A DNA stretch of 64,000 bases from Escherichia phage vB_EcoM_UP17. Both the position numbers and the translations under genes were made by a program. Below the pieces are notes generated by a model. That model ran no database searches. It was given only the letters and a program-made list of their open reading frames with translations, and was not told where the DNA came from. Of this stretch, positions 13,868 to 36,047 are shown piece after piece. The DNA lies in the sequence record LR746137. One strand, 5' to 3'. Every line of letters begins with the position of its first letter. Positions within the stretch are counted from its first letter, which is position 1.

Positions 13868-14338
13868 CTAAGCTGGCATGATTAAAAAAGAACTCTCCAC
13901 TTCAAAATGCCAATCATCTACAAGCCCTGATTCCCAATCCTTCTCTTCATGGAAAGAGCAAATCCAACGGTACATACCTGGCGGTGTATTCTCCACATCT
14001 TCCGGCAACCCATAATCCAAGGCTGTCTTGCCATTCTCTGTAAAACCAGGGTGGAGATTAGGAGCTTTCAGTACAGAAACCATACCTCCAACATCCACAG
14101 CTACGATCCACTCTGTCATGTATGGGCTGTCATATTGAGGCTCATCAGAACCTACCTCAACAGCCTCTGTGCGTAAGATGATAATAGGCTGCTCTGTGAT
14201 TGGGGCTTTGACAATATAACCGTGGTCCTCAAAAAGATCGATAACCTCGAACTCATCGCCGTTTTCGACACCATAGCTCTTATTCAAAGAGATAAACTTC
14301 GGGTTATCATCGTAAGCTTTAGTTACTTTAATTCTCAT
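13868..14338 (-). CDS. hypothetical protein (156 aa)
   Basis: ORF from track; no motif recognised. Confidence 0.4.
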   Translation of the reverse strand: MRIKVTKAYDDNPKFISLNKSYGVENGDEFEVIDLFEDHGYIVKAPITEQPIIILRTEAVEVGSDEPQYDSPYMTEWIVAVDVGGMVSVLKAPNLHPGFTENGKTALDYGLPEDVENTPPGMYRWICSFHEEKDWESGLVDDWHFEVESSFLIMPA

Positions 14339-30516: not shown

Positions 30517-31890
30517 ATGGCAACTTTTCGTGAAAAGGTAGCAACCGTAACTTTACTGTATGGTGCTACATCAATTCGTGAAACCCAGTTCGATATTCCC
30601 CTGATCCTTACAGGTCAGAACGTAACTGGCGAAGCGATTCAATATTACTCTTCTTCCGATGCACTTTTGGAAGCAGGTTATGGATTAAATGATCCAGCGT
30701 ATATTATGGCAGTCAAACTGTTTAACGGTTTGTTCCCACCAGATCAAGTCATGGTTGGTAAGCGTGAAGTTACAAACTTTACTCTAACTCCAATTGTAGA
30801 AGATAGTGCAACTTACACAATTACCATCAAAAATGGTACCAAGAAAAAAGAATTTAAATTCATTGCTGATGACACTGCAACTGCACAAGAGATTGTAGTT
30901 GGTCTGACTGAAATGATCAATGCAGATCTTGTTTATGGCCCACTGTTTACAGTAGCTAACAACGGCGCTGCAATGACTTTCACTCCAGTAGAAGGTAAGT
31001 TTGGTTCTATTGACAGCACAGGTTTCACTCAAGAAACTGTCTATGCTAATGCTATTACGGAAGATATTGCTGCTCTGCATGATATTGATAGTAGCTGGTT
31101 CTGGACCCTTTCAGATTCCCATGAAACAGAAGATGTTCTAGCTTTGGCTGCATGGGTAGAAGAGAATGATAAAGTTTACTTCTTCTCTAGCTCTGAACCT
31201 GGAATTAAAACGAAAGCAGAAGATAACGTTCTGGAACGACTGAATGACCTCGGTTATAATAACACTTGCTTTGCTTTGTGGATGACCGATGCAGATTCTG
31301 TATTCCCAGAAGCAGCAGTTGTTGGTGCAATCTGTTCTCGTCAACCTGGTTTAACTACTCTTCACGGTAAAACACTGGTAGGTGTAGAGATCGAGAAACT
31401 GGATCAGACTTCGGAAAACAATATTGTTCAACAGAACGGTAACATCTATCGTAAAGAGCATGGAACTCTGTTCTATCGTGATGGATTGATGGTTAGCGGT
31501 TTCTTTGTTGACTATGTTGTTCATGCTTTGTGGTTTAAAGCTCGCACAGAAGAATCACTGTTTACACTGTTTAAACAACAATCTATGCTGGGTGGTGGTG
31601 TTCGTGCTACTTCAAATGGTCTAGCTTTGATTCGACAAGCTGTTCTGGCTAACCCGATCCAAGTAGGTATCCTCAACGGTTCCATCGCTAATGAAGTTGT
31701 TACTTCTGAAGAGACTGGTTTGCGTGTCGATCTGAAACCTATTGTTTATATTCCTTCTCGTGCCGATATGACTGATGCGCAAATCAATGCTCGTCTGGTC
31801 GATGGGATGAAGATTGAATATGTTTACGCTGGCTTCTTCCATTACGTTAAAGTTCAGGTCAACGTCCTGACTAACCGTACTGCAAACTAA
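30517..31890 (+). CDS. tail sheath protein
   Basis: 457-aa gene immediately before a 159-aa tube-like gene, a frameshifted chaperone and the tape measure, the canonical contractile-tail order. Confidence 0.6.
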   Translation: MATFREKVATVTLLYGATSIRETQFDIPLILTGQNVTGEAIQYYSSSDALLEAGYGLNDPAYIMAVKLFNGLFPPDQVMVGKREVTNFTLTPIVEDSATYTITIKNGTKKKEFKFIADDTATAQEIVVGLTEMINADLVYGPLFTVANNGAAMTFTPVEGKFGSIDSTGFTQETVYANAITEDIAALHDIDSSWFWTLSDSHETEDVLALAAWVEENDKVYFFSSSEPGIKTKAEDNVLERLNDLGYNNTCFALWMTDADSVFPEAAVVGAICSRQPGLTTLHGKTLVGVEIEKLDQTSENNIVQQNGNIYRKEHGTLFYRDGLMVSGFFVDYVVHALWFKARTEESLFTLFKQQSMLGGGVRATSNGLALIRQAVLANPIQVGILNGSIANEVVTSEETGLRVDLKPIVYIPSRADMTDAQINARLVDGMKIEYVYAGFFHYVKVQVNVLTNRTAN

Positions 31891-31936
31891 TACGGCGGGG
31901 GTTAAGCCCCCGTTATCAAAATAAAGAGGATCTATA

Positions 31937-32416
31937 ATGGATAAAATGCTTACTGGCGTAATGGCCTACGACCCATCTCAAGTTATCCTTTCATTAGGTG
32001 GTTGGGAACCGTGGGGTTTTGCGGCTGATACTAAAATCGTTATTGCTAAATCTAACGATATTATCAACCCTTATTCAGGGACTGATGGCGACGTTTCACT
32101 AGCTTTGAGTCGTAACCGTTTGGGAACACTCACAATGTCTTTGCAACGTACATCTCCAGCTAACGAAGTACTTGCAACATATGCACAAACAATGTATTCT
32201 ACTCGTCAAGTAGCGTTCAGTGTTTATTTAGAAGACCCACGTGGCTATTACATTAGCACGATTGGATGGATTCAAAGTCAGCCTGAAGATACTATTGGCG
32301 AAATGATTACAGAGAACCAATGGGTTATTGGTCTTAAAGATGCAAGCCTTCTGCGTAATGAAGTTGGTGTAGGTTTGAGCACCCTTAACTCAATCTCTGC
32401 TCTGACAATTCAATAA
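31937..32416 (+). CDS. tail tube protein
   Basis: 159-aa gene between sheath and chaperone; followed by a terminator. Confidence 0.55.
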   Translation: MDKMLTGVMAYDPSQVILSLGGWEPWGFAADTKIVIAKSNDIINPYSGTDGDVSLALSRNRLGTLTMSLQRTSPANEVLATYAQTMYSTRQVAFSVYLEDPRGYYISTIGWIQSQPEDTIGEMITENQWVIGLKDASLLRNEVGVGLSTLNSISALTIQ

Positions 32417-32422
32417 TAAATA

Positions 32423-32445
32423 AAGGGCAGAAATGCCCTTTTTAT
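32423..32445 (+). terminator. rho-independent terminator after the tube gene
   Basis: AGGGCA-GAAA-TGCCCT followed by TTTTTATCATT. Confidence 0.5.
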
Positions 32446-32461
32446 CATTAGAGAGGAAAAT

Positions 32462-32944
32462 ATGTCACAAGAACAAGATAACACAATTCAAAAATATGCT
32501 CGACCAGAAGAAGTAGTTGAGATTCCGTTAGATGGAAACAGATCTGTTACTTTCCGTATTATGAAGTGGAGTCCATCTAAAGTGTTTGACAGGATTCCAG
32601 AATTAGGTAGTGTTCTGGTTGTTCCTATGACTATGTATAGCACAGCAACAATGTCCGCAGACGAAGACCTTGAGTCACGTATTGCTATGGCACTGATCCA
32701 ACTTTTTGCAGGTTTGGAAGAAAAGAATTTAACTGTCTTTTTGCGTAAAATTTTAGATGAGGTTTATACTCAAGACGGTTATAACGTTGCAGAAAATTTT
32801 GATGAATTATTTATGGCTCACCCAGAACTAGTGTTAGATCTTACTGCTAAAGTTCTGGAGGTAAACTACGGCCCTTTTTTCAAACGAGGTTTCGGAAAAC
32901 TGTTCACACAGCTTCAGGCGATGACGAGTTTAGCAGCAAATTAA
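32462..32944 (+). CDS. tail assembly chaperone, in-frame product
   Basis: 160-aa ORF between tube and tape measure; contains the slippery heptamer T_TTT_TTC at 32875-32881. Confidence 0.5.
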   Translation: MSQEQDNTIQKYARPEEVVEIPLDGNRSVTFRIMKWSPSKVFDRIPELGSVLVVPMTMYSTATMSADEDLESRIAMALIQLFAGLEEKNLTVFLRKILDEVYTQDGYNVAENFDELFMAHPELVLDLTAKVLEVNYGPFFKRGFGKLFTQLQAMTSLAAN

Positions 32945-33210
32945 CACCTGCGATTGAACATGCTATCGACATAGCAACGAAAACCCTTACTTTGAAGTGG
33001 TATGAGGTTATTCTTTGCAAAGTCGTTAAAGATACCTCGGAAACACTGAAAACATTGGATAACTACGGTGTAGATTATCTTTTAAAACTATATGAGTATT
33101 TAACATACGAAGAGTATGTTGAAGCCATGTATGTTAAAGACACTTCAATAAAGAGAAAACATCAAAACCAGACAAATAAAATGTCAGATTTGTTTAAGAA
33201 ACTTGTTTAA
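32462..33210 (+). CDS. tail assembly chaperone, predicted -1 frameshift fusion product
   Basis: -1 frame opens 7 codons before the slippery site (after TAA 32848-32850) and runs to 33210, covering the 32992-33210 track ORF. Confidence 0.45.
32875..32881 (+). other. -1 programmed ribosomal frameshift slippery site (T TTT TTC)
   Basis: Zero-frame codons CCT TTT TTC give the X_XXY_YYZ heptamer; position and frame geometry match lambda G/GT-type chaperones. Confidence 0.5.
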
Positions 33211-33230
33211 TCCAACACGAGGAACATACT

Positions 33231-35219
33231 TTGTTAGAAATTAACGCCTCCAAAATTAGTAACGTGGTTACGTTTAAGGTGGACAAGAACAGTCTCAAGG
33301 AAGCAAAAGATGCCGTGTTGAGTGTTCAGAAGTTTGCAAATAAAATGCAACCCACTATGAACATGACCAAGTTTAGACAACAAATGAAAGAGATTGAGCG
33401 TGAACTTAAGAAAGCTCAAACTCAAAGTCAAAAACCTATGCGAGCACCTACTCCCGCTGGAGCGGGTGCTCCTGTAGGAGGATCTGGTAGACCTAGAACT
33501 CCTAAAACCCCGCAAGGAAGAGAAGAAGAAAAAGCTCGTAAAGCTGCTGAACGCGAAGCTAAAGCAGCAGCACGTAGGGAAGATTTAGGTAATCTTCGTT
33601 TGCAGAACTTTAACTACAGAGCAAGAGCATTTAGTAAAGCCAGTCCAGGCGCTATGCAAGAAGCTAGGGACGTTATGGGTAAAGCTGTAGAGCAATACAA
33701 AAAGGGTGAAATAACTCTTCAACGTATGAACCAAGCTCTTGCTCACCAGTTAGATGCCTTACGCAGATCTCATCGTGAAAAGAATGCTGAAATAGAAGAC
33801 GAGGTTCGCGGTCGTCGCCGTATTCGTAGAGAGCTAGAAGCAGAAGCTAAAATGCGTATACGTATGCGAAATCGTGAACTTAGAGATATAGAACGCAACC
33901 GTAAGCGTGAATTAGCTCAACAAAAACGTGATCGTGATCGTCGATATGGACAATTAAAAGAAGGTGCGGCAGGTCTTAATCCACGCATGATTGCATCCTC
34001 TTTGATAGGTGCTGGGCTGTTTGCAGGTGGTTCTGTAGTTGGTAACACGTTGATGAATACTAATGAAAGAATTAAACTTGTAAGTCGTGGTGCTGAAAAC
34101 GTTCAGACAAACGCCAACGCTATTTTGGCAATGACAGCTTGGGGTGAACAGAACGGTGTGGACTCTGCAAATATTATTAAATCAATAGATAATATTAAAG
34201 ACGTTCGTGAACGTCTTGGTAATACAGTTTTAGCTGCAAAGTGGAATGAGAAAGAAGGGAAGTGGAAAGGCGGTGATAATGGCATAACTGACATTATGAA
34301 CTTGTTTGGATGGAATCCAGAACAGCTTAAACCTTTACAGAACGATCCTTTAGCTTTTATTCAGGCTACTGTTAATGAAGGTGAGCGTCGAGGTATGAAC
34401 TCTGCTCAAATCGGGCGACTTCTTGAAAACCTTGGTGATGACCTTATGCACTACCAACGTATGTTTAGTAAAAACGGCGAAGGGTATAATGAAGTATTGA
34501 AAATGCTTCAAAGAACAGGTGCAACATTAACTCAAGAACAAATAGATGCTTCTAAAGAGTTTACTCGTTTTGCTGCAACAGTTCAGCTTGTAGGTCAAGG
34601 TATGCAGAACCATTTCTTAGAGGGTTTTGTAAAAGCTTTACCTAAAGATGATTCTTGGTTGGATAACGTTAAAGTGCTAGATCAGTTCGCCAAAGATTTA
34701 GGTGAAGAACTTGGTAAAACAACAGTTCAACTTGGTGGTTTTGCTAAAGAATTAGGAGATGGTTTCGGATCTTTTACCAATTGGCTTAAAGAAACATTCC
34801 CAGATACCTTCGGAGACAACACAGATCCTAATAAATCTTTGGCACAAAAAGCATACGAGGCAACGCAAAGTGGAGACAGCAATCCTGTAGCAGATTGGTT
34901 GTACAATTTAACAGGTATTGATACACAAGATATTGGTCGTATGTGGAGAGGAGAACAAACAAGGACACGTGCTTTTGGATTTGGTAATCCTCTTGAAGAT
35001 TTACGTGAATCAGCCTATACACCTAACGTAAGTTTGGCTCGTAATCAACCTGTTGTTGAGAATACGGTAGCAATACCAAGTGATCTTATCAAAGTTACGA
35101 TCAGCCCTTCTTCCGAGTTTGGAAATATTCTTGATGCAAGAATTCAAAATAGCGGAAATAGTATTTTCCAACGTTTGTCTCTTTCAACTCTAAGTGGACA
35201 ATCTAACACTGGTGGTTAA
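33231..35219 (+). CDS. tail tape measure protein
   Basis: 662 aa; TTG start behind GAGGA; Arg/Glu-rich coiled-coil N-terminal half; lies after the frameshifted chaperone. Confidence 0.6.
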   Translation: MLEINASKISNVVTFKVDKNSLKEAKDAVLSVQKFANKMQPTMNMTKFRQQMKEIERELKKAQTQSQKPMRAPTPAGAGAPVGGSGRPRTPKTPQGREEEKARKAAEREAKAAARREDLGNLRLQNFNYRARAFSKASPGAMQEARDVMGKAVEQYKKGEITLQRMNQALAHQLDALRRSHREKNAEIEDEVRGRRRIRRELEAEAKMRIRMRNRELRDIERNRKRELAQQKRDRDRRYGQLKEGAAGLNPRMIASSLIGAGLFAGGSVVGNTLMNTNERIKLVSRGAENVQTNANAILAMTAWGEQNGVDSANIIKSIDNIKDVRERLGNTVLAAKWNEKEGKWKGGDNGITDIMNLFGWNPEQLKPLQNDPLAFIQATVNEGERRGMNSAQIGRLLENLGDDLMHYQRMFSKNGEGYNEVLKMLQRTGATLTQEQIDASKEFTRFAATVQLVGQGMQNHFLEGFVKALPKDDSWLDNVKVLDQFAKDLGEELGKTTVQLGGFAKELGDGFGSFTNWLKETFPDTFGDNTDPNKSLAQKAYEATQSGDSNPVADWLYNLTGIDTQDIGRMWRGEQTRTRAFGFGNPLEDLRESAYTPNVSLARNQPVVENTVAIPSDLIKVTISPSSEFGNILDARIQNSGNSIFQRLSLSTLSGQSNTGG

Positions 35220-35226
35220 TAAAATA

Positions 35227-35248
35227 CCTCGCTTCGGCGGGGTTTTTT
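35227..35248 (+). terminator. rho-independent terminator after the tape measure gene
   Basis: CCTCGC-TTCG-GCGGGG hairpin followed by TTTTTTCGTTT. Confidence 0.5.
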
Positions 35249-35345
35249 CGTTTCCCTTGACACGAAGTTTCTATATGTGTTACAATAATCAATATGGGAA
35301 GATCTTGCATCTTCCTTTTGGCATTATCATTACTACGAGGTTATC

Positions 35346-36047
35346 ATGGCAGCAATGACTCCACAACAGTCGGTGAGAGCCGTCTATAAGGCAGAACAGG
35401 AAATCAACTCTACCGAGAATAAAAATACCTCGGCATCTACTGTAAAGGGTGATAATGGTTTCTGCATTTTAGCAAGTGTTTATAATAGTTCAAGTGATCA
35501 ATACATTCAAAACTTTAAAGCAATTACTTTCGATTCGGTCCCTGAAGTAGGTGTAACTCGTGAGGCAGATGTTACAAGTTTTCCAGTAGAATCAGGATCG
35601 GATGTAAGTGACCACGTTCAAATAAAAAACAACAGATTTAAACTTTCAGGTATAATTACCGAAACACCAATTCGGCTTATGCGGGATCAATTATACAGTG
35701 CAGGTGTAAATGGGGCAAGGATTTCTCAAGCAATAGAATATCTAGATCAAATATTTGAGTCAAGACAACCAATAGTTCTTTTGACAGAACACAGGACTTT
35801 TGAAAATGTTATTCTCAAAGGCTACTCTTATGATTATAAATCTGAATTTGCTATGCAATTTGATTTAGAGTTTGAACAAATCCGTCTCGTTTCTAAGGCC
35901 ACTACTAATGCTATTGCTGTAAAAACAGCACCAAATAAATCGACTGGTGGTGATGTGAAAGGTCAAGTTGCTTCGAATGGTCCTAAGTCAGATATTACAG
36001 TAAGAACTGCTGAAGCTACTAATACCCCAACAAACAACGGAGGTTAA
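35346..36047 (+). CDS. baseplate/tail protein candidate (233 aa)
   Basis: First gene after the tape measure; no motif recognised. Confidence 0.35.
   Translation: MAAMTPQQSVRAVYKAEQEINSTENKNTSASTVKGDNGFCILASVYNSSSDQYIQNFKAITFDSVPEVGVTREADVTSFPVESGSDVSDHVQIKNNRFKLSGIITETPIRLMRDQLYSAGVNGARISQAIEYLDQIFESRQPIVLLTEHRTFENVILKGYSYDYKSEFAMQFDLEFEQIRLVSKATTNAIAVKTAPNKSTGGDVKGQVASNGPKSDITVRTAEATNTPTNNGG

What the first reader, a model, noticed from the sequence alone, without database searches (positions are those of the whole stretch)
32848..33210. Programmed -1 frameshift in the tail assembly chaperone
The gene between tube and tape measure contains the slippery heptamer T TTT TTC at 32875-32881 in the zero frame. 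The -1 frame opens only 7 codons upstream of it and stays open for 111 codons to 33210. This is the G/GT-type geometry conserved in tailed phages; the track lists the extension as a separate 72-aa ORF.
Basis: partly seen in the sequence, partly recalled or inferred. Interest (0 to 1): 0.55.

Follow-up and report, generated by a model that had tools for sequence, protein, structure and literature searches.

The report
Unannotated tail-chaperone −1 frameshift (G/GT type)
The tail assembly chaperone gene of this phAPEC8-like E. coli phage has a conserved ribosome-slippage site that should yield a longer second protein, a well-known phage trick that public annotations of this lineage miss.

Summary
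The window is a Phapecoctavirus (phAPEC8-like myophage). Gene 32462-32944, between tube and tape measure, is a tail assembly chaperone (Pfam PF21822). T TTT TTC (32875-32881) lies in its zero frame and overlaps a second in-frame heptamer, C CCT TTT (32872-32878). The -1 frame is open from 32851 to 33210. A slip at either heptamer gives the same 249-aa fusion.

In 64 loci from the two subfamilies, related metagenomic contigs and two outgroup phages, the -1 ORF always continues past the G stop (197-278 nt). In 60 of 62 surveyed loci the site is T TTT TTC, although the preceding amino acid varies. Three loci (L050, L052, phage KLEP7) keep only C CCT TTT. Barbavirus has G GGA AAG a few codons downstream.

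The stretch upstream of the "72-aa ORF" start evolves as coding sequence in the -1 frame. It has no start codon of its own and no Shine-Dalgarno (SD) motif.

No conserved downstream RNA structure was found. An upstream GGAGG at stimulatory spacing is common but not universal.

None of 20 public records inspected annotates the fusion.

This is a new member of a known kind. It is not surprising, but it is a real annotation correction. There is no experimental proof in this lineage.

The parts
31937..32416 (+). Tail tube gene (upstream neighbour, context)
   Evidence: phrog_280 E 3e-35 and PF11681. Annotated as tail tube or virion structural protein in relatives. phi92 gp131 is called the tube protein in PMC13450770.
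32422..32449 (+). Intrinsic-terminator-like hairpin plus T tract between the tube and chaperone genes (context; may lower chaperone and tape-measure expression)
   Evidence: Terminator scan. The same site is annotated as a terminator in phAPEC8 JX561091.
32462..32944 (+). G: tail assembly chaperone, zero-frame product, 160 aa, 18.2 kDa
32857..32862 (+). SD-like GGAGGT, candidate upstream stimulator of the -1 shift
   Evidence: Pairing to the anti-SD is -10.7 kcal/mol, in the top 0.6% of 9-mers in the gene. 42 of 47 unique homologues reach -6 kcal/mol or stronger in the upstream zone. It lies 10 nt before C CCT TTT and 13 nt before T TTT TTC, inside the 9-14 nt stimulatory range (PMC5009743). 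The Glu codon here is GAG in 20 of 23 unique contexts although overall usage is 73% GAA. It is absent in some lineages, so it is optional at best.
32872..32878 (+). Slippery heptamer 1: C CCT TTT, in the zero frame
   Evidence: It is the only heptamer retained in L050, L052 and phage KLEP7. C_CC.U_UU.U is among the efficient motifs in E. coli (PMC4066793).
32875..32881 (+).
   Evidence: Present in 60 of 62 surveyed loci. The preceding codon is always NNT although its amino acid is Pro, Cys or Ser, and Phe-Phe is always TTT TTC. U_UU.U_UU.C is efficient in E. coli and is used by IS elements.
32851..33210 (+). Open -1 reading frame, from the first sense codon after TAA 32848-32850 to TAA 33208-33210
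   Evidence: The equivalent -1 ORF extends 242-278 nt past the G stop in all complete related loci, whereas the +1 frame extends only 4-61 nt.
32881..33207 (+). T extension (109 aa) read after the slip. GT = codons 32462-32881 followed by 32881-33207 = 249 aa, 28.8 kDa
   Evidence: Conserved blocks in the -1-frame alignment. AF2 gives pLDDT 71: residues 1-11 are disordered and the rest is helical.
32887..32895 (+). -1-frame Arg-Phe-Arg motif (AGG TTT CGG), invariant 'RF' just after the slip site
   Evidence: Present in all 43 unique T sequences and in KLEP7. Barbavirus has VFR. The overlapping zero-frame residues vary: GF, GL, GS or SF.
32945..32991 (+). Stretch between the G stop and the first possible start codon of the '72-aa ORF'; coding in the -1 frame without a start codon of its own
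   Evidence: Third-position excess of substitutions is 0.64 against 0.44 and 0.41. The annotated ORF shows the same pattern: 0.635 against 0.44 and 0.38. The stretch contains the conserved block ..A...K..SL.W[YF].
32992..33210 (+). Mis-called separate 72-aa ORF (TTG start); actually the C-terminal two thirds of the T extension
   Evidence: phrog_16039, unknown function. Annotated starts of the equivalent ORF scatter from T residue 28 to 83 in relatives, or the ORF is not called at all. No SD motif precedes the TTG.
33231..35219 (+). Tape measure protein gene (downstream neighbour, context)
   Evidence: phrog_16051, 1246 bits over the full length. Annotated as tape measure in relatives.

Best explanation
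This is a programmed -1 ribosomal frameshift of the lambda G/GT type in the tail assembly chaperone gene of a phAPEC8-like myophage.

Most ribosomes read 32462-32944 and make the 160-aa chaperone G.

A minority slip back one nucleotide on the tandem slippery run C CCU UUU UUC. This needs either tRNA-Pro and tRNA-Phe on CCU UUU, or two tRNA-Phe on UUU UUC. These ribosomes continue in the -1 frame to 33210 and make the 249-aa GT protein. Both slip positions give the same protein, with the junction ...VNYGPFF|QTRFRK...

GT is the folded G domain, then a short Arg-Phe-Arg motif, a flexible linker, and a helical domain of about 75-90 residues.

By analogy with lambda, the shared G part binds the tape measure protein, and the T part recruits the tube protein so that the tube (and then the sheath) polymerises around the tape measure. 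Neither protein stays in the virion.

The fixed slip frequency sets the G:GT ratio. An upstream GGAGG, 10 and 13 nt before the two heptamers, probably raises the slip frequency by pairing with 16S rRNA. No downstream structure seems to be involved.

What is shown: sequence geometry, family assignment, conservation, coding signature, lack of an independent start.

What is inferred: that the fusion is made, its ratio to G, its role in assembly, and the SD effect.
For: 1. Geometry verified.

3. Conservation across 62 surveyed loci, which cover Stephanstirmvirinae, Vequintavirinae and metagenomic relatives:
- 60 loci have in-frame T TTT TTC.
- In all 62 the -1 ORF runs on past the G stop. It extends 242-278 nt in the 60 complete loci, and in the two cut by a contig end it is still open 197 and 206 nt past the stop.
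- The +1 frame closes within 61 nt.

4. Nucleotide-level selection. In 30 unique contexts the codon before Phe-Phe encodes Pro, Cys or Ser but always ends in T, and Phe-Phe is always TTT TTC. Neighbouring synonymous sites vary. Background codon usage does not predict this.

5. Replacement heptamers. L050, L052 and Pseudaeromonas phage KLEP7 keep only C CCT TTT. Rheinheimera Barbavirus lost the T run and has G GGA AAG in frame three codons downstream, still feeding the homologous -1 ORF.

6. The -1 frame is coding upstream of any start codon. The codon-position substitution pattern and the conserved blocks show this. Annotated starts of the small ORF scatter or are missing. No SD motif precedes TTG 32992.

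7. Both heptamers belong to H_HH.U_UU.Y, one of the most efficient classes measured in E. coli (PMC4066793).

8. The SD-like GGAGG lies within the 9-14 nt stimulatory range.

9. The slip site sits at the end of the folded G domain. G residues 141-160 are predicted disordered.

10. The same unannotated arrangement, with a conserved GTTTTT, was argued for the related Vandenendeviridae and Andersonviridae (PMC12846349).
Against: - No experiment in this lineage shows the fusion protein. The literature search found none.
- No significant or conserved downstream stimulatory structure was found, so efficiency cannot be predicted. The tools used cannot detect pseudoknots.
- The SD-like element overlaps conserved Leu-Glu-Val codons. 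It is missing or displaced in some lineages, for example Mydovirus, KP13-16 and ChuuTotoro.
- The T extension has no detectable sequence or fold similarity to a characterised T domain.
- The IMG/VR survey used one search pattern that contained the 'FF' peptide. This biases the sample toward that amino-acid pair, though not toward codon choice or the -1 ORF.
Confidence: 0.88

Rival explanations
1. The 72-aa ORF (32992-33210) is an independent small gene, translated from its own TTG start or by re-initiation after the G stop. The heptamer is incidental.
For: Gene callers and several GenBank records list a separate small ORF here. It has its own PHROG families. The large protein database holds only short T-type proteins of 64-85 aa.
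Against: - No SD motif precedes TTG 32992. The phi92 annotators marked ribosome binding sites for gp132 and gp134 but not for gp133.
- Annotated starts scatter from T residue 28 to 83, or the ORF is not called at all.
- Conserved residues and a coding-type substitution pattern extend upstream of every possible start, back to the slip site.
- This reading does not explain the invariant heptamer, or its replacement by other canonical heptamers.
Confidence: 0.04
2. The frame change is made by RNA polymerase, not the ribosome. Transcriptional slippage on the T6 run adds one U to a fraction of mRNAs, and these are then translated normally into GT.
For: The site is a homopolymeric T run. Transcriptional slippage is a known route to -1-frame products, and U7/A7 runs are avoided in E. 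coli genes partly for that reason (PMC4066793; PMC5009743).
Against: - The run is exactly 6 T in 60 of 62 loci and is never longer. By my own knowledge, not tested here, efficient bacterial RNA polymerase slippage generally needs longer runs.
- L050 and L052 have only 4 T and KLEP7 has 5 T.
- Barbavirus has G GGA AAG, with no homopolymer longer than 4 in the overlap zone, yet keeps the same two-frame architecture.
- In every case the common feature is a canonical X XXY YYZ heptamer in the zero-frame register. That register matters to ribosomes and not to polymerases.
Confidence: 0.04
3. There is nothing functional. It is a chance heptamer plus a chance open frame, or a sequencing or assembly indel that splits a single gene.
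For: For one genome alone, about 0.13 in-frame heptamers are expected in the overlap zone. T-rich runs are error-prone in sequencing.
Against: - The same frame arrangement appears in 127 near-identical or related records found by DNA search, and in every one of the loci examined from independent isolates and metagenomes.
- The stop-free -1 run has P of 0.003 or less.
- There is purifying selection in the -1 frame and nucleotide-level conservation of the heptamer.
- No relative has G and T in one continuous frame.
Confidence: 0.01

Closest known systems
Bacteriophage lambda gpG/gpGT tail assembly chaperones (Levin 1993; Xu, Hendrix and Duda 2004, 2013, 2014, as summarised in PMC5009743)
   Same: - Gene lies between the major tail (tube) gene and the tape measure gene.
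- Canonical heptamer near the 3' end of G.
- -1 ORF without its own start, ending just before the tape measure gene.
- The short product is the standard one and the long product is frameshift-dependent.
- No strong downstream structure is evident.
- Barbavirus relatives even use lambda's G GGA AAG.
   Different: - The heptamers here are C CCU UUU and U UUU UUC, overlapping in tandem.
- The phage is a contractile-tailed myophage of about 150 kb.
- G belongs to another Pfam chaperone family (PF21822).
- The T extension has no detectable similarity to a characterised T domain.
- An upstream SD-like element at dnaX-like spacing may contribute.
Proposed -1 frameshift in the tail assembly chaperone locus of Vandenendeviridae (Pakpunavirus, phage Adele) and Andersonviridae (PMC12846349, 2025)
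   Same: - These are related myophage families, which the authors link to Vequintavirinae.
- The downstream ORF is routinely annotated as a hypothetical protein.
- There is an uninterrupted -1 frame of more than 200 bp in all genomes.
[quoted passage not shown]
- The Vequintavirinae form found here, TGT TTT TTC, contains that motif.
   Different: - That paper does not report the site for Stephanstirmvirinae or Vequintavirinae.
- The window's form is CCC TTT TTT C, a double heptamer.
- Direct homology of the two sites was not tested here.
E. coli dnaX and IS-element -1 frameshift signals
   Same: - A canonical heptamer with an upstream SD-like sequence 9-14 nt away (PMC5009743).
- U_UU.U_UU.C is one of the heptamers used by IS elements (PMC4066793).
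   Different: - dnaX and many IS elements also use a downstream hairpin or pseudoknot. None was found here.
- The biological purpose differs: a fixed ratio of two assembly chaperones.
T4-like phage tail assembly chaperones (Vladimirov, Gautam and Davidson 2022, as described in PMC10274946)
   Same: Short and long chaperone forms sharing an N-terminal part are needed for a contractile tail.
   Different: - T4-like phages are reported to encode the short and long forms as separate genes instead of frameshifting.
- Here no single-frame long form exists in any relative, and a slippery site is conserved.

Membership tests
G/GT-type programmed -1 frameshift of tailed-phage tail assembly chaperones | The gene pair lies between the major tail/tube gene and the tape measure gene | tested here: met
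   Order is sheath 30517-31890, tube 31937-32416, G 32462-32944, T to 33210, tape measure 33231-35219. Relatives have the same order.
G/GT-type programmed -1 frameshift of tailed-phage tail assembly chaperones | The upstream ORF encodes a tail assembly chaperone | tested here: met
   [not shown]
G/GT-type programmed -1 frameshift of tailed-phage tail assembly chaperones | A canonical X XXY YYZ slippery heptamer in the zero frame, inside the overlap of the two frames and near the 3' end of G | tested here: met
   C CCT TTT (32872-32878) and T TTT TTC (32875-32881) both lie inside the -1 open zone that starts at 32851. Both are efficient in E. coli (PMC4066793).
G/GT-type programmed -1 frameshift of tailed-phage tail assembly chaperones | The second ORF is in the -1 frame, lacks its own initiation signals, and extends to just before the tape measure gene | tested here: met
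   There is no ATG, GTG or TTG in the first 37 codons after the slip, and no SD motif before TTG 32992. The ORF ends 20 nt before the tape measure start. There is a coding signature upstream of the TTG.
G/GT-type programmed -1 frameshift of tailed-phage tail assembly chaperones | Evolutionary conservation of the slip site and two-frame geometry among relatives | tested here: met
   60 of 62 surveyed loci have T TTT TTC. All loci, including two outgroups, have a canonical in-frame heptamer and the long -1 ORF.
G/GT-type programmed -1 frameshift of tailed-phage tail assembly chaperones | A fusion protein GT is made at a low, fixed ratio to G and is required for tail assembly | not testable with these tools
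   This needs mass spectrometry, western blots, reporter assays and genetics. No such data for phAPEC8, phi92 or rV5 were found in the literature searched.
G/GT-type programmed -1 frameshift of tailed-phage tail assembly chaperones | The T domain binds the major tail/tube protein, and G binds the tape measure protein | not testable with these tools
   This is inferred from lambda (PMC5009743). The T model is helical with pLDDT 71 and has no informative structural neighbours.
dnaX/IS-type stimulated -1 frameshift (upstream SD plus downstream structure) | An SD-like sequence 9-14 nt upstream of the shift site | tested here: inconclusive
   GGAGG at 32857-32861 is 10 and 13 nt upstream of the two heptamers and pairs at -10.7 kcal/mol. 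It is common in relatives and shows a GAG codon bias. It is confounded with conserved residues and is absent in some lineages.
dnaX/IS-type stimulated -1 frameshift (upstream SD plus downstream structure) | A stable downstream hairpin or pseudoknot 5-9 nt after the heptamer | tested here: not met
   MFE z-scores range from -1.7 to +1.8 across 9 sequences. RNAalifold found 0 conserved pairs in both subgroups. There was no Rfam match. Pseudoknots are not formally excluded.

The most novel reading that the evidence does not exclude
The site may be more than a plain lambda-type slip. It could be a tandem, overlapping double slippery site (C CCU UUU UUC) that gives ribosomes two consecutive chances to shift into the same frame and yields one identical product. 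In this reading it is boosted by an upstream anti-SD interaction rather than by any downstream structure. The invariant RF (GGUU) element 2-4 codons downstream could act as an additional signal, at the nascent-peptide or mRNA level. Heptamer turnover across the clade (U UUU UUC, C CCU UUU, G GGA AAG) would then be a natural series for studying how frameshift efficiency, and so the G:GT ratio, is tuned in contractile-tailed phages.
Probability: 0.2. Interest if true: 0.45.

Novelty: new member of a known kind. Interest (0 to 1): 0.27.

Why it matters
1. It corrects the annotation of a whole group of therapeutically used E. coli, Klebsiella and Salmonella myophages (phAPEC8-like, phi92-like and rV5-like). 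In these records the region is currently a "hypothetical protein" with inconsistent starts, or an unexplained gap of about 290 nt. It should be annotated as a joined CDS with ribosomal slippage.

2. It extends the conserved tail-chaperone frameshift to two large myophage subfamilies. The heptamer turnover across the clade argues for ribosomal rather than transcriptional slippage.

3. For phage engineering, synonymous recoding of this gene must preserve the heptamers, the -1 frame and possibly the upstream GGAGG. Otherwise tail assembly is likely to fail.

It does not change current understanding of frameshifting or of tail assembly.

Tried and rejected
- Downstream stimulatory structure. Single-sequence folds of 9 homologous regions gave z-scores from -1.7 to +1.8. 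RNAalifold on two subgroups gave 0 pairs. An Rfam scan gave only a sub-threshold chance hit on the other strand. A possible 4-5 bp hairpin at GGUUU..AAACU was seen by eye, but it lies in the dual-coding RF/GF motif and was not supported.
- Single-frame fusion search. Searches of the 5.8-billion-protein database with GT and with T found no single-frame G-T fusion.
- Structure of T. The AF2 model (pLDDT 71) searched against BFVD gave only one 73-aa relative and non-specific helical hits.
- Structure of GT.
- Sequence search of GT against the PDB gave no hits.
- A literature search for the literal strings TTTTTTC and UUUUUUC returned only primer noise.
- The Vladimirov 2022 paper is not held in the library, so it is cited only through other papers.
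- Three records that list "tail assembly chaperone" under the T-only match looked like possible joined CDSs. The two inspected turned out to be a 1-nt overlap with the G stop codon.

Full report
**1. What is in the sequence**

The window is a phAPEC8-like myophage (genus Phapecoctavirus, subfamily Stephanstirmvirinae). Positions 31900-33300 are 99.8% identical to Escherichia phage Mt1B1_P17 and 99.6% identical to phAPEC8.

The local gene order is as follows:

| Feature | Coordinates | Evidence |
|---|---|---|
| Tail sheath | 30517-31890 | phrog_205 |
| Tail tube | 31937-32416 | phrog_280 |
| 160-aa gene | 32462-32944 | tail assembly chaperone, see below |
| Mechanically listed 72-aa ORF | 32992-33210 | see below |
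| Tape measure protein | 33231-35219 | phrog_16051, 1246 bits |

The 160-aa gene matches the Pfam family Phage_TAC_15 (PF21822) at 84.3 bits against a curated cut-off of 22. It also matches phrog_3840, "tail assembly chaperone", at E 2.8e-55. In phAPEC8 these genes are phAPEC8_00160, _00161 and _00162, all labelled hypothetical.

**2. Check of the observation**

TTTTTTC is at 32875-32881. The zero-frame codons are GGC CCT TTT TTC AAA, so the heptamer is in X XXY YYZ register.

The -1 frame has a TAA at 32848-32850 and is then open to the TAA at 33208-33210. Reading on from the C at 32881 gives 109 residues, and the last 72 are the "separate" ORF. A slip gives a 249-aa, 28.8-kDa fusion beside the 160-aa, 18.2-kDa G protein.

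A second canonical in-frame heptamer, C CCT TTT (32872-32878), overlaps the first. A shift on either gives the same protein, ...VNYGPFF|QTRFRK...

For this genome alone the arrangement is already unlikely:
- About 0.13 in-frame heptamers are expected in the 31-codon overlap zone.
- P is 0.003 or less for the stop-free run after the G stop.
- Of 68 gene proxies in the window, this is the only one that combines both features.

**3. Comparative evidence**

I fetched 12 annotated relatives at decreasing similarity: ESCO5, phi92, phiWec179, KP13-16, slur16, BIS47, Av-05, SSE121, P7_Pc, ChuuTotoro, pEp_SNUABM_01 and LTH01. Their G-protein identity to the window falls to about 25%.

All 12 have T TTT TTC in the zero frame near the 3' end of G. 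In all 12 the -1 ORF runs 242-278 nt past the G stop and ends just before the tape measure gene. The +1 frame closes within 61 nt.

Adding three further GenBank or RefSeq records (Mydo, VLCpiM5b, SKA64) and 46 IMG/VR loci gave 62 loci in all. Of these, 60 have T TTT TTC, and in all 62 the -1 ORF runs on past the G stop. Two are cut by a contig end with the frame still open 197 and 206 nt past the stop.

In 30 unique 75-nt contexts:
- The codon before Phe-Phe encodes Pro, Cys or Ser (CCT, TGT, AGT), but its third base is always T.
- Phe-Phe is always TTT TTC.
- Neighbouring synonymous sites vary freely.

Background codon usage does not predict this pattern. That is selection on the nucleotides of the heptamer, not on the protein.

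**4. Heptamer turnover**

The two exceptions in the survey (L050, L052) read C CCT TTT ATC and C CCT TTT ACC. They keep only the first heptamer, with a run of four T.

Searching outward from them found two outgroups:
- Pseudaeromonas phage KLEP7 has C CCT TTT TCC.
- The Rheinheimera Barbavirus group has lost the T run (…HYGCLT…) and carries G GGA AAG, the lambda heptamer, in frame three codons further on. The -1 frame then reads VFR… into a homologous T domain.

So across the clade the constant features are a canonical heptamer in zero-frame register and the long -1 ORF, not one particular sequence. This argues strongly for ribosomal slippage. It argues against RNA-polymerase slippage on a homopolymer, because in Barbavirus no homopolymer in the overlap zone is longer than 4.

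**5. The downstream ORF is not an independent gene**

- The -1-frame translations align from the slip site onward. There is an invariant RF motif 2-4 codons after the slip, then a variable Gly/Ser/Asp-rich linker, then a conserved block ..A...K..SL.W[YF] and a helical domain.
- In the window the first possible start codon (TTG 32992) lies inside that conserved block, and no SD motif precedes it.
- Annotated starts of the equivalent small ORF in relatives scatter from T residue 28 to 83, and several records do not call it at all.
- The stretch between the G stop and the TTG shows the same third-position excess of substitutions in the -1 frame as the annotated ORF: 0.64 against 0.44/0.41, compared with 0.635 against 0.44/0.38. 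In the overlap with G, the zero frame dominates the pattern.
- In the 5.8-billion-protein database, G homologues are mostly about 160 aa (158-175). T homologues are 64-85-aa "hypothetical proteins" that cover only 56-76% of the extension. No relative has G and T in one frame.

**6. Stimulators**

No downstream structure was found:
- MFE z-scores of 9 homologous regions lie between -1.7 and +1.8.
- RNAalifold finds no conserved pair in either subgroup.
- No Rfam family matches.
- Pseudoknots cannot be formally excluded with these tools.

Upstream, GGAGG (32857-32861) pairs with the anti-SD at -10.7 kcal/mol, in the top 0.6% of 9-mers in the gene. It lies 10 nt before C CCT TTT and 13 nt before T TTT TTC. 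SD-like stimulators of -1 shifts act at 9-14 nt, as in dnaX and about 56% of IS elements (PMC5009743).

42 of 47 unique homologues have pairing of -6 kcal/mol or stronger in the upstream zone. The Glu codon there is GAG in 20 of 23 unique contexts, although these phages use GAA 73% of the time. However, the element overlaps conserved Leu-Glu-Val residues and is missing or displaced in some lineages. I treat it as a plausible, optional enhancer.

Both heptamers fall in the H_HH.U_UU.Y class, among the most efficient in E. coli. Both exceed 0.1% frameshifting without any stimulator (PMC4066793).

**7. Structure**

- The AF2 model of G (pLDDT 74, pTM 0.67) has a folded domain that ends at about residue 140, which is at the Phe-Phe slip site. 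Residues 141-160 are disordered. The frameshift therefore swaps a floppy tail for the T extension at a domain boundary.
- Foldseek found nothing significant.
- The T model (pLDDT 71) is a disordered linker followed by long helices, and it has no informative neighbours.

**8. Comparison with what is known**

The lambda G/GT frameshift and its conservation in tailed phages are textbook (Levin 1993; Xu et al. 2004, 2013, 2014, via PMC5009743; PMC8785237).

A December 2025 paper argues for the same unannotated frameshift, with a conserved GTTTTT, in Vandenendeviridae and Andersonviridae. Its authors relate these families to Vequintavirinae (PMC12846349). T4-like phages are reported to use separate short and long genes instead (PMC10274946).

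I found no paper that names the frameshift for phAPEC8, phi92 or rV5-like phages. None of the 20 GenBank or RefSeq records I inspected has a joined CDS.

**9. Verdict**

This is a new, currently unannotated member of a well-known kind of recoding signal.

It has some modestly interesting particulars: a tandem double heptamer, a likely upstream SD stimulator, no downstream structure, heptamer turnover in outgroups, and an unexplained invariant RF element. Production and function of GT remain inferred until tested.

Interest is low to moderate (0.27). My confidence in the mechanism is 0.88.

Noticed in passing
window 32422-32449 (+): An intrinsic-terminator-like hairpin (AAAGGGCAGAAATGCCCTTT plus a T tract) lies between the tube gene and the chaperone gene. 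The same site is annotated as a terminator in phAPEC8. It may attenuate chaperone and tape-measure expression relative to sheath and tube.
   Followed up: partly
window 35226-35286 (+): A terminator-like hairpin lies directly after the tape-measure stop (35226-35243). It is followed by a near-consensus sigma-70-type promoter, TTGACA-18-TACAAT with an upstream TG (35257-35286), ahead of gene 35346-36047.
   Followed up: no
window 32887-32895 and homologous positions in L001-L066: The -1-frame 'RF' (nucleotides GGTT) 2-4 codons after the slip site is invariant in every relative, including KLEP7. Barbavirus has VFR. The overlapping zero-frame residues vary (GF, GL, GS, SF). It could be a key motif of the T extension or an mRNA-level signal. 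This is unexplained.
   Followed up: partly
window 13868-14338 (-): A 156-aa gene proxy has an in-frame T TTT TTA heptamer near its 3' end and a 119-nt -1-frame extension past its stop. It may be chance and was not examined.
   Followed up: no
GenBank records (e.g. MG065650 'Campylobacter phage B15', OP562383 'Acinetobacter phage vB_AbaM_ABPW7'; OR584014 'Pseudomonas phage PsgM04F'): The Campylobacter- and Acinetobacter-named records are 99.5-99.8% identical to E. coli Phapecoctavirus over this 1.4-kb region. The Pseudomonas-named record encodes a Stephanstirmvirinae-type T region (69% identity). Host labels are probably wrong, or the preparations were contaminated.
   Followed up: no
MZ501084.1 and MZ501063.1 (BASEL phages JohannJBalmer, EmilieFrey): The feature under the chaperone match is labelled 'tail tube protein' in these records. 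This looks like a mislabelled tail assembly chaperone gene.
   Followed up: no
L002 464-556 (phi92 FR775895.2 66790-66882): The phi92 record annotates a 'hypothetical tRNA' inside the tail sheath coding sequence. This is probably an annotation artefact.
   Followed up: no
L066 1805-2443 (Rheinheimera phage Barba17S): In Barbavirus a reverse-strand 'putative DNA binding protein' gene is inserted between the end of the T ORF and the tape measure gene. This interrupts the otherwise tight chaperone/tape-measure arrangement.
   Followed up: no
[not shown]
   Followed up: no
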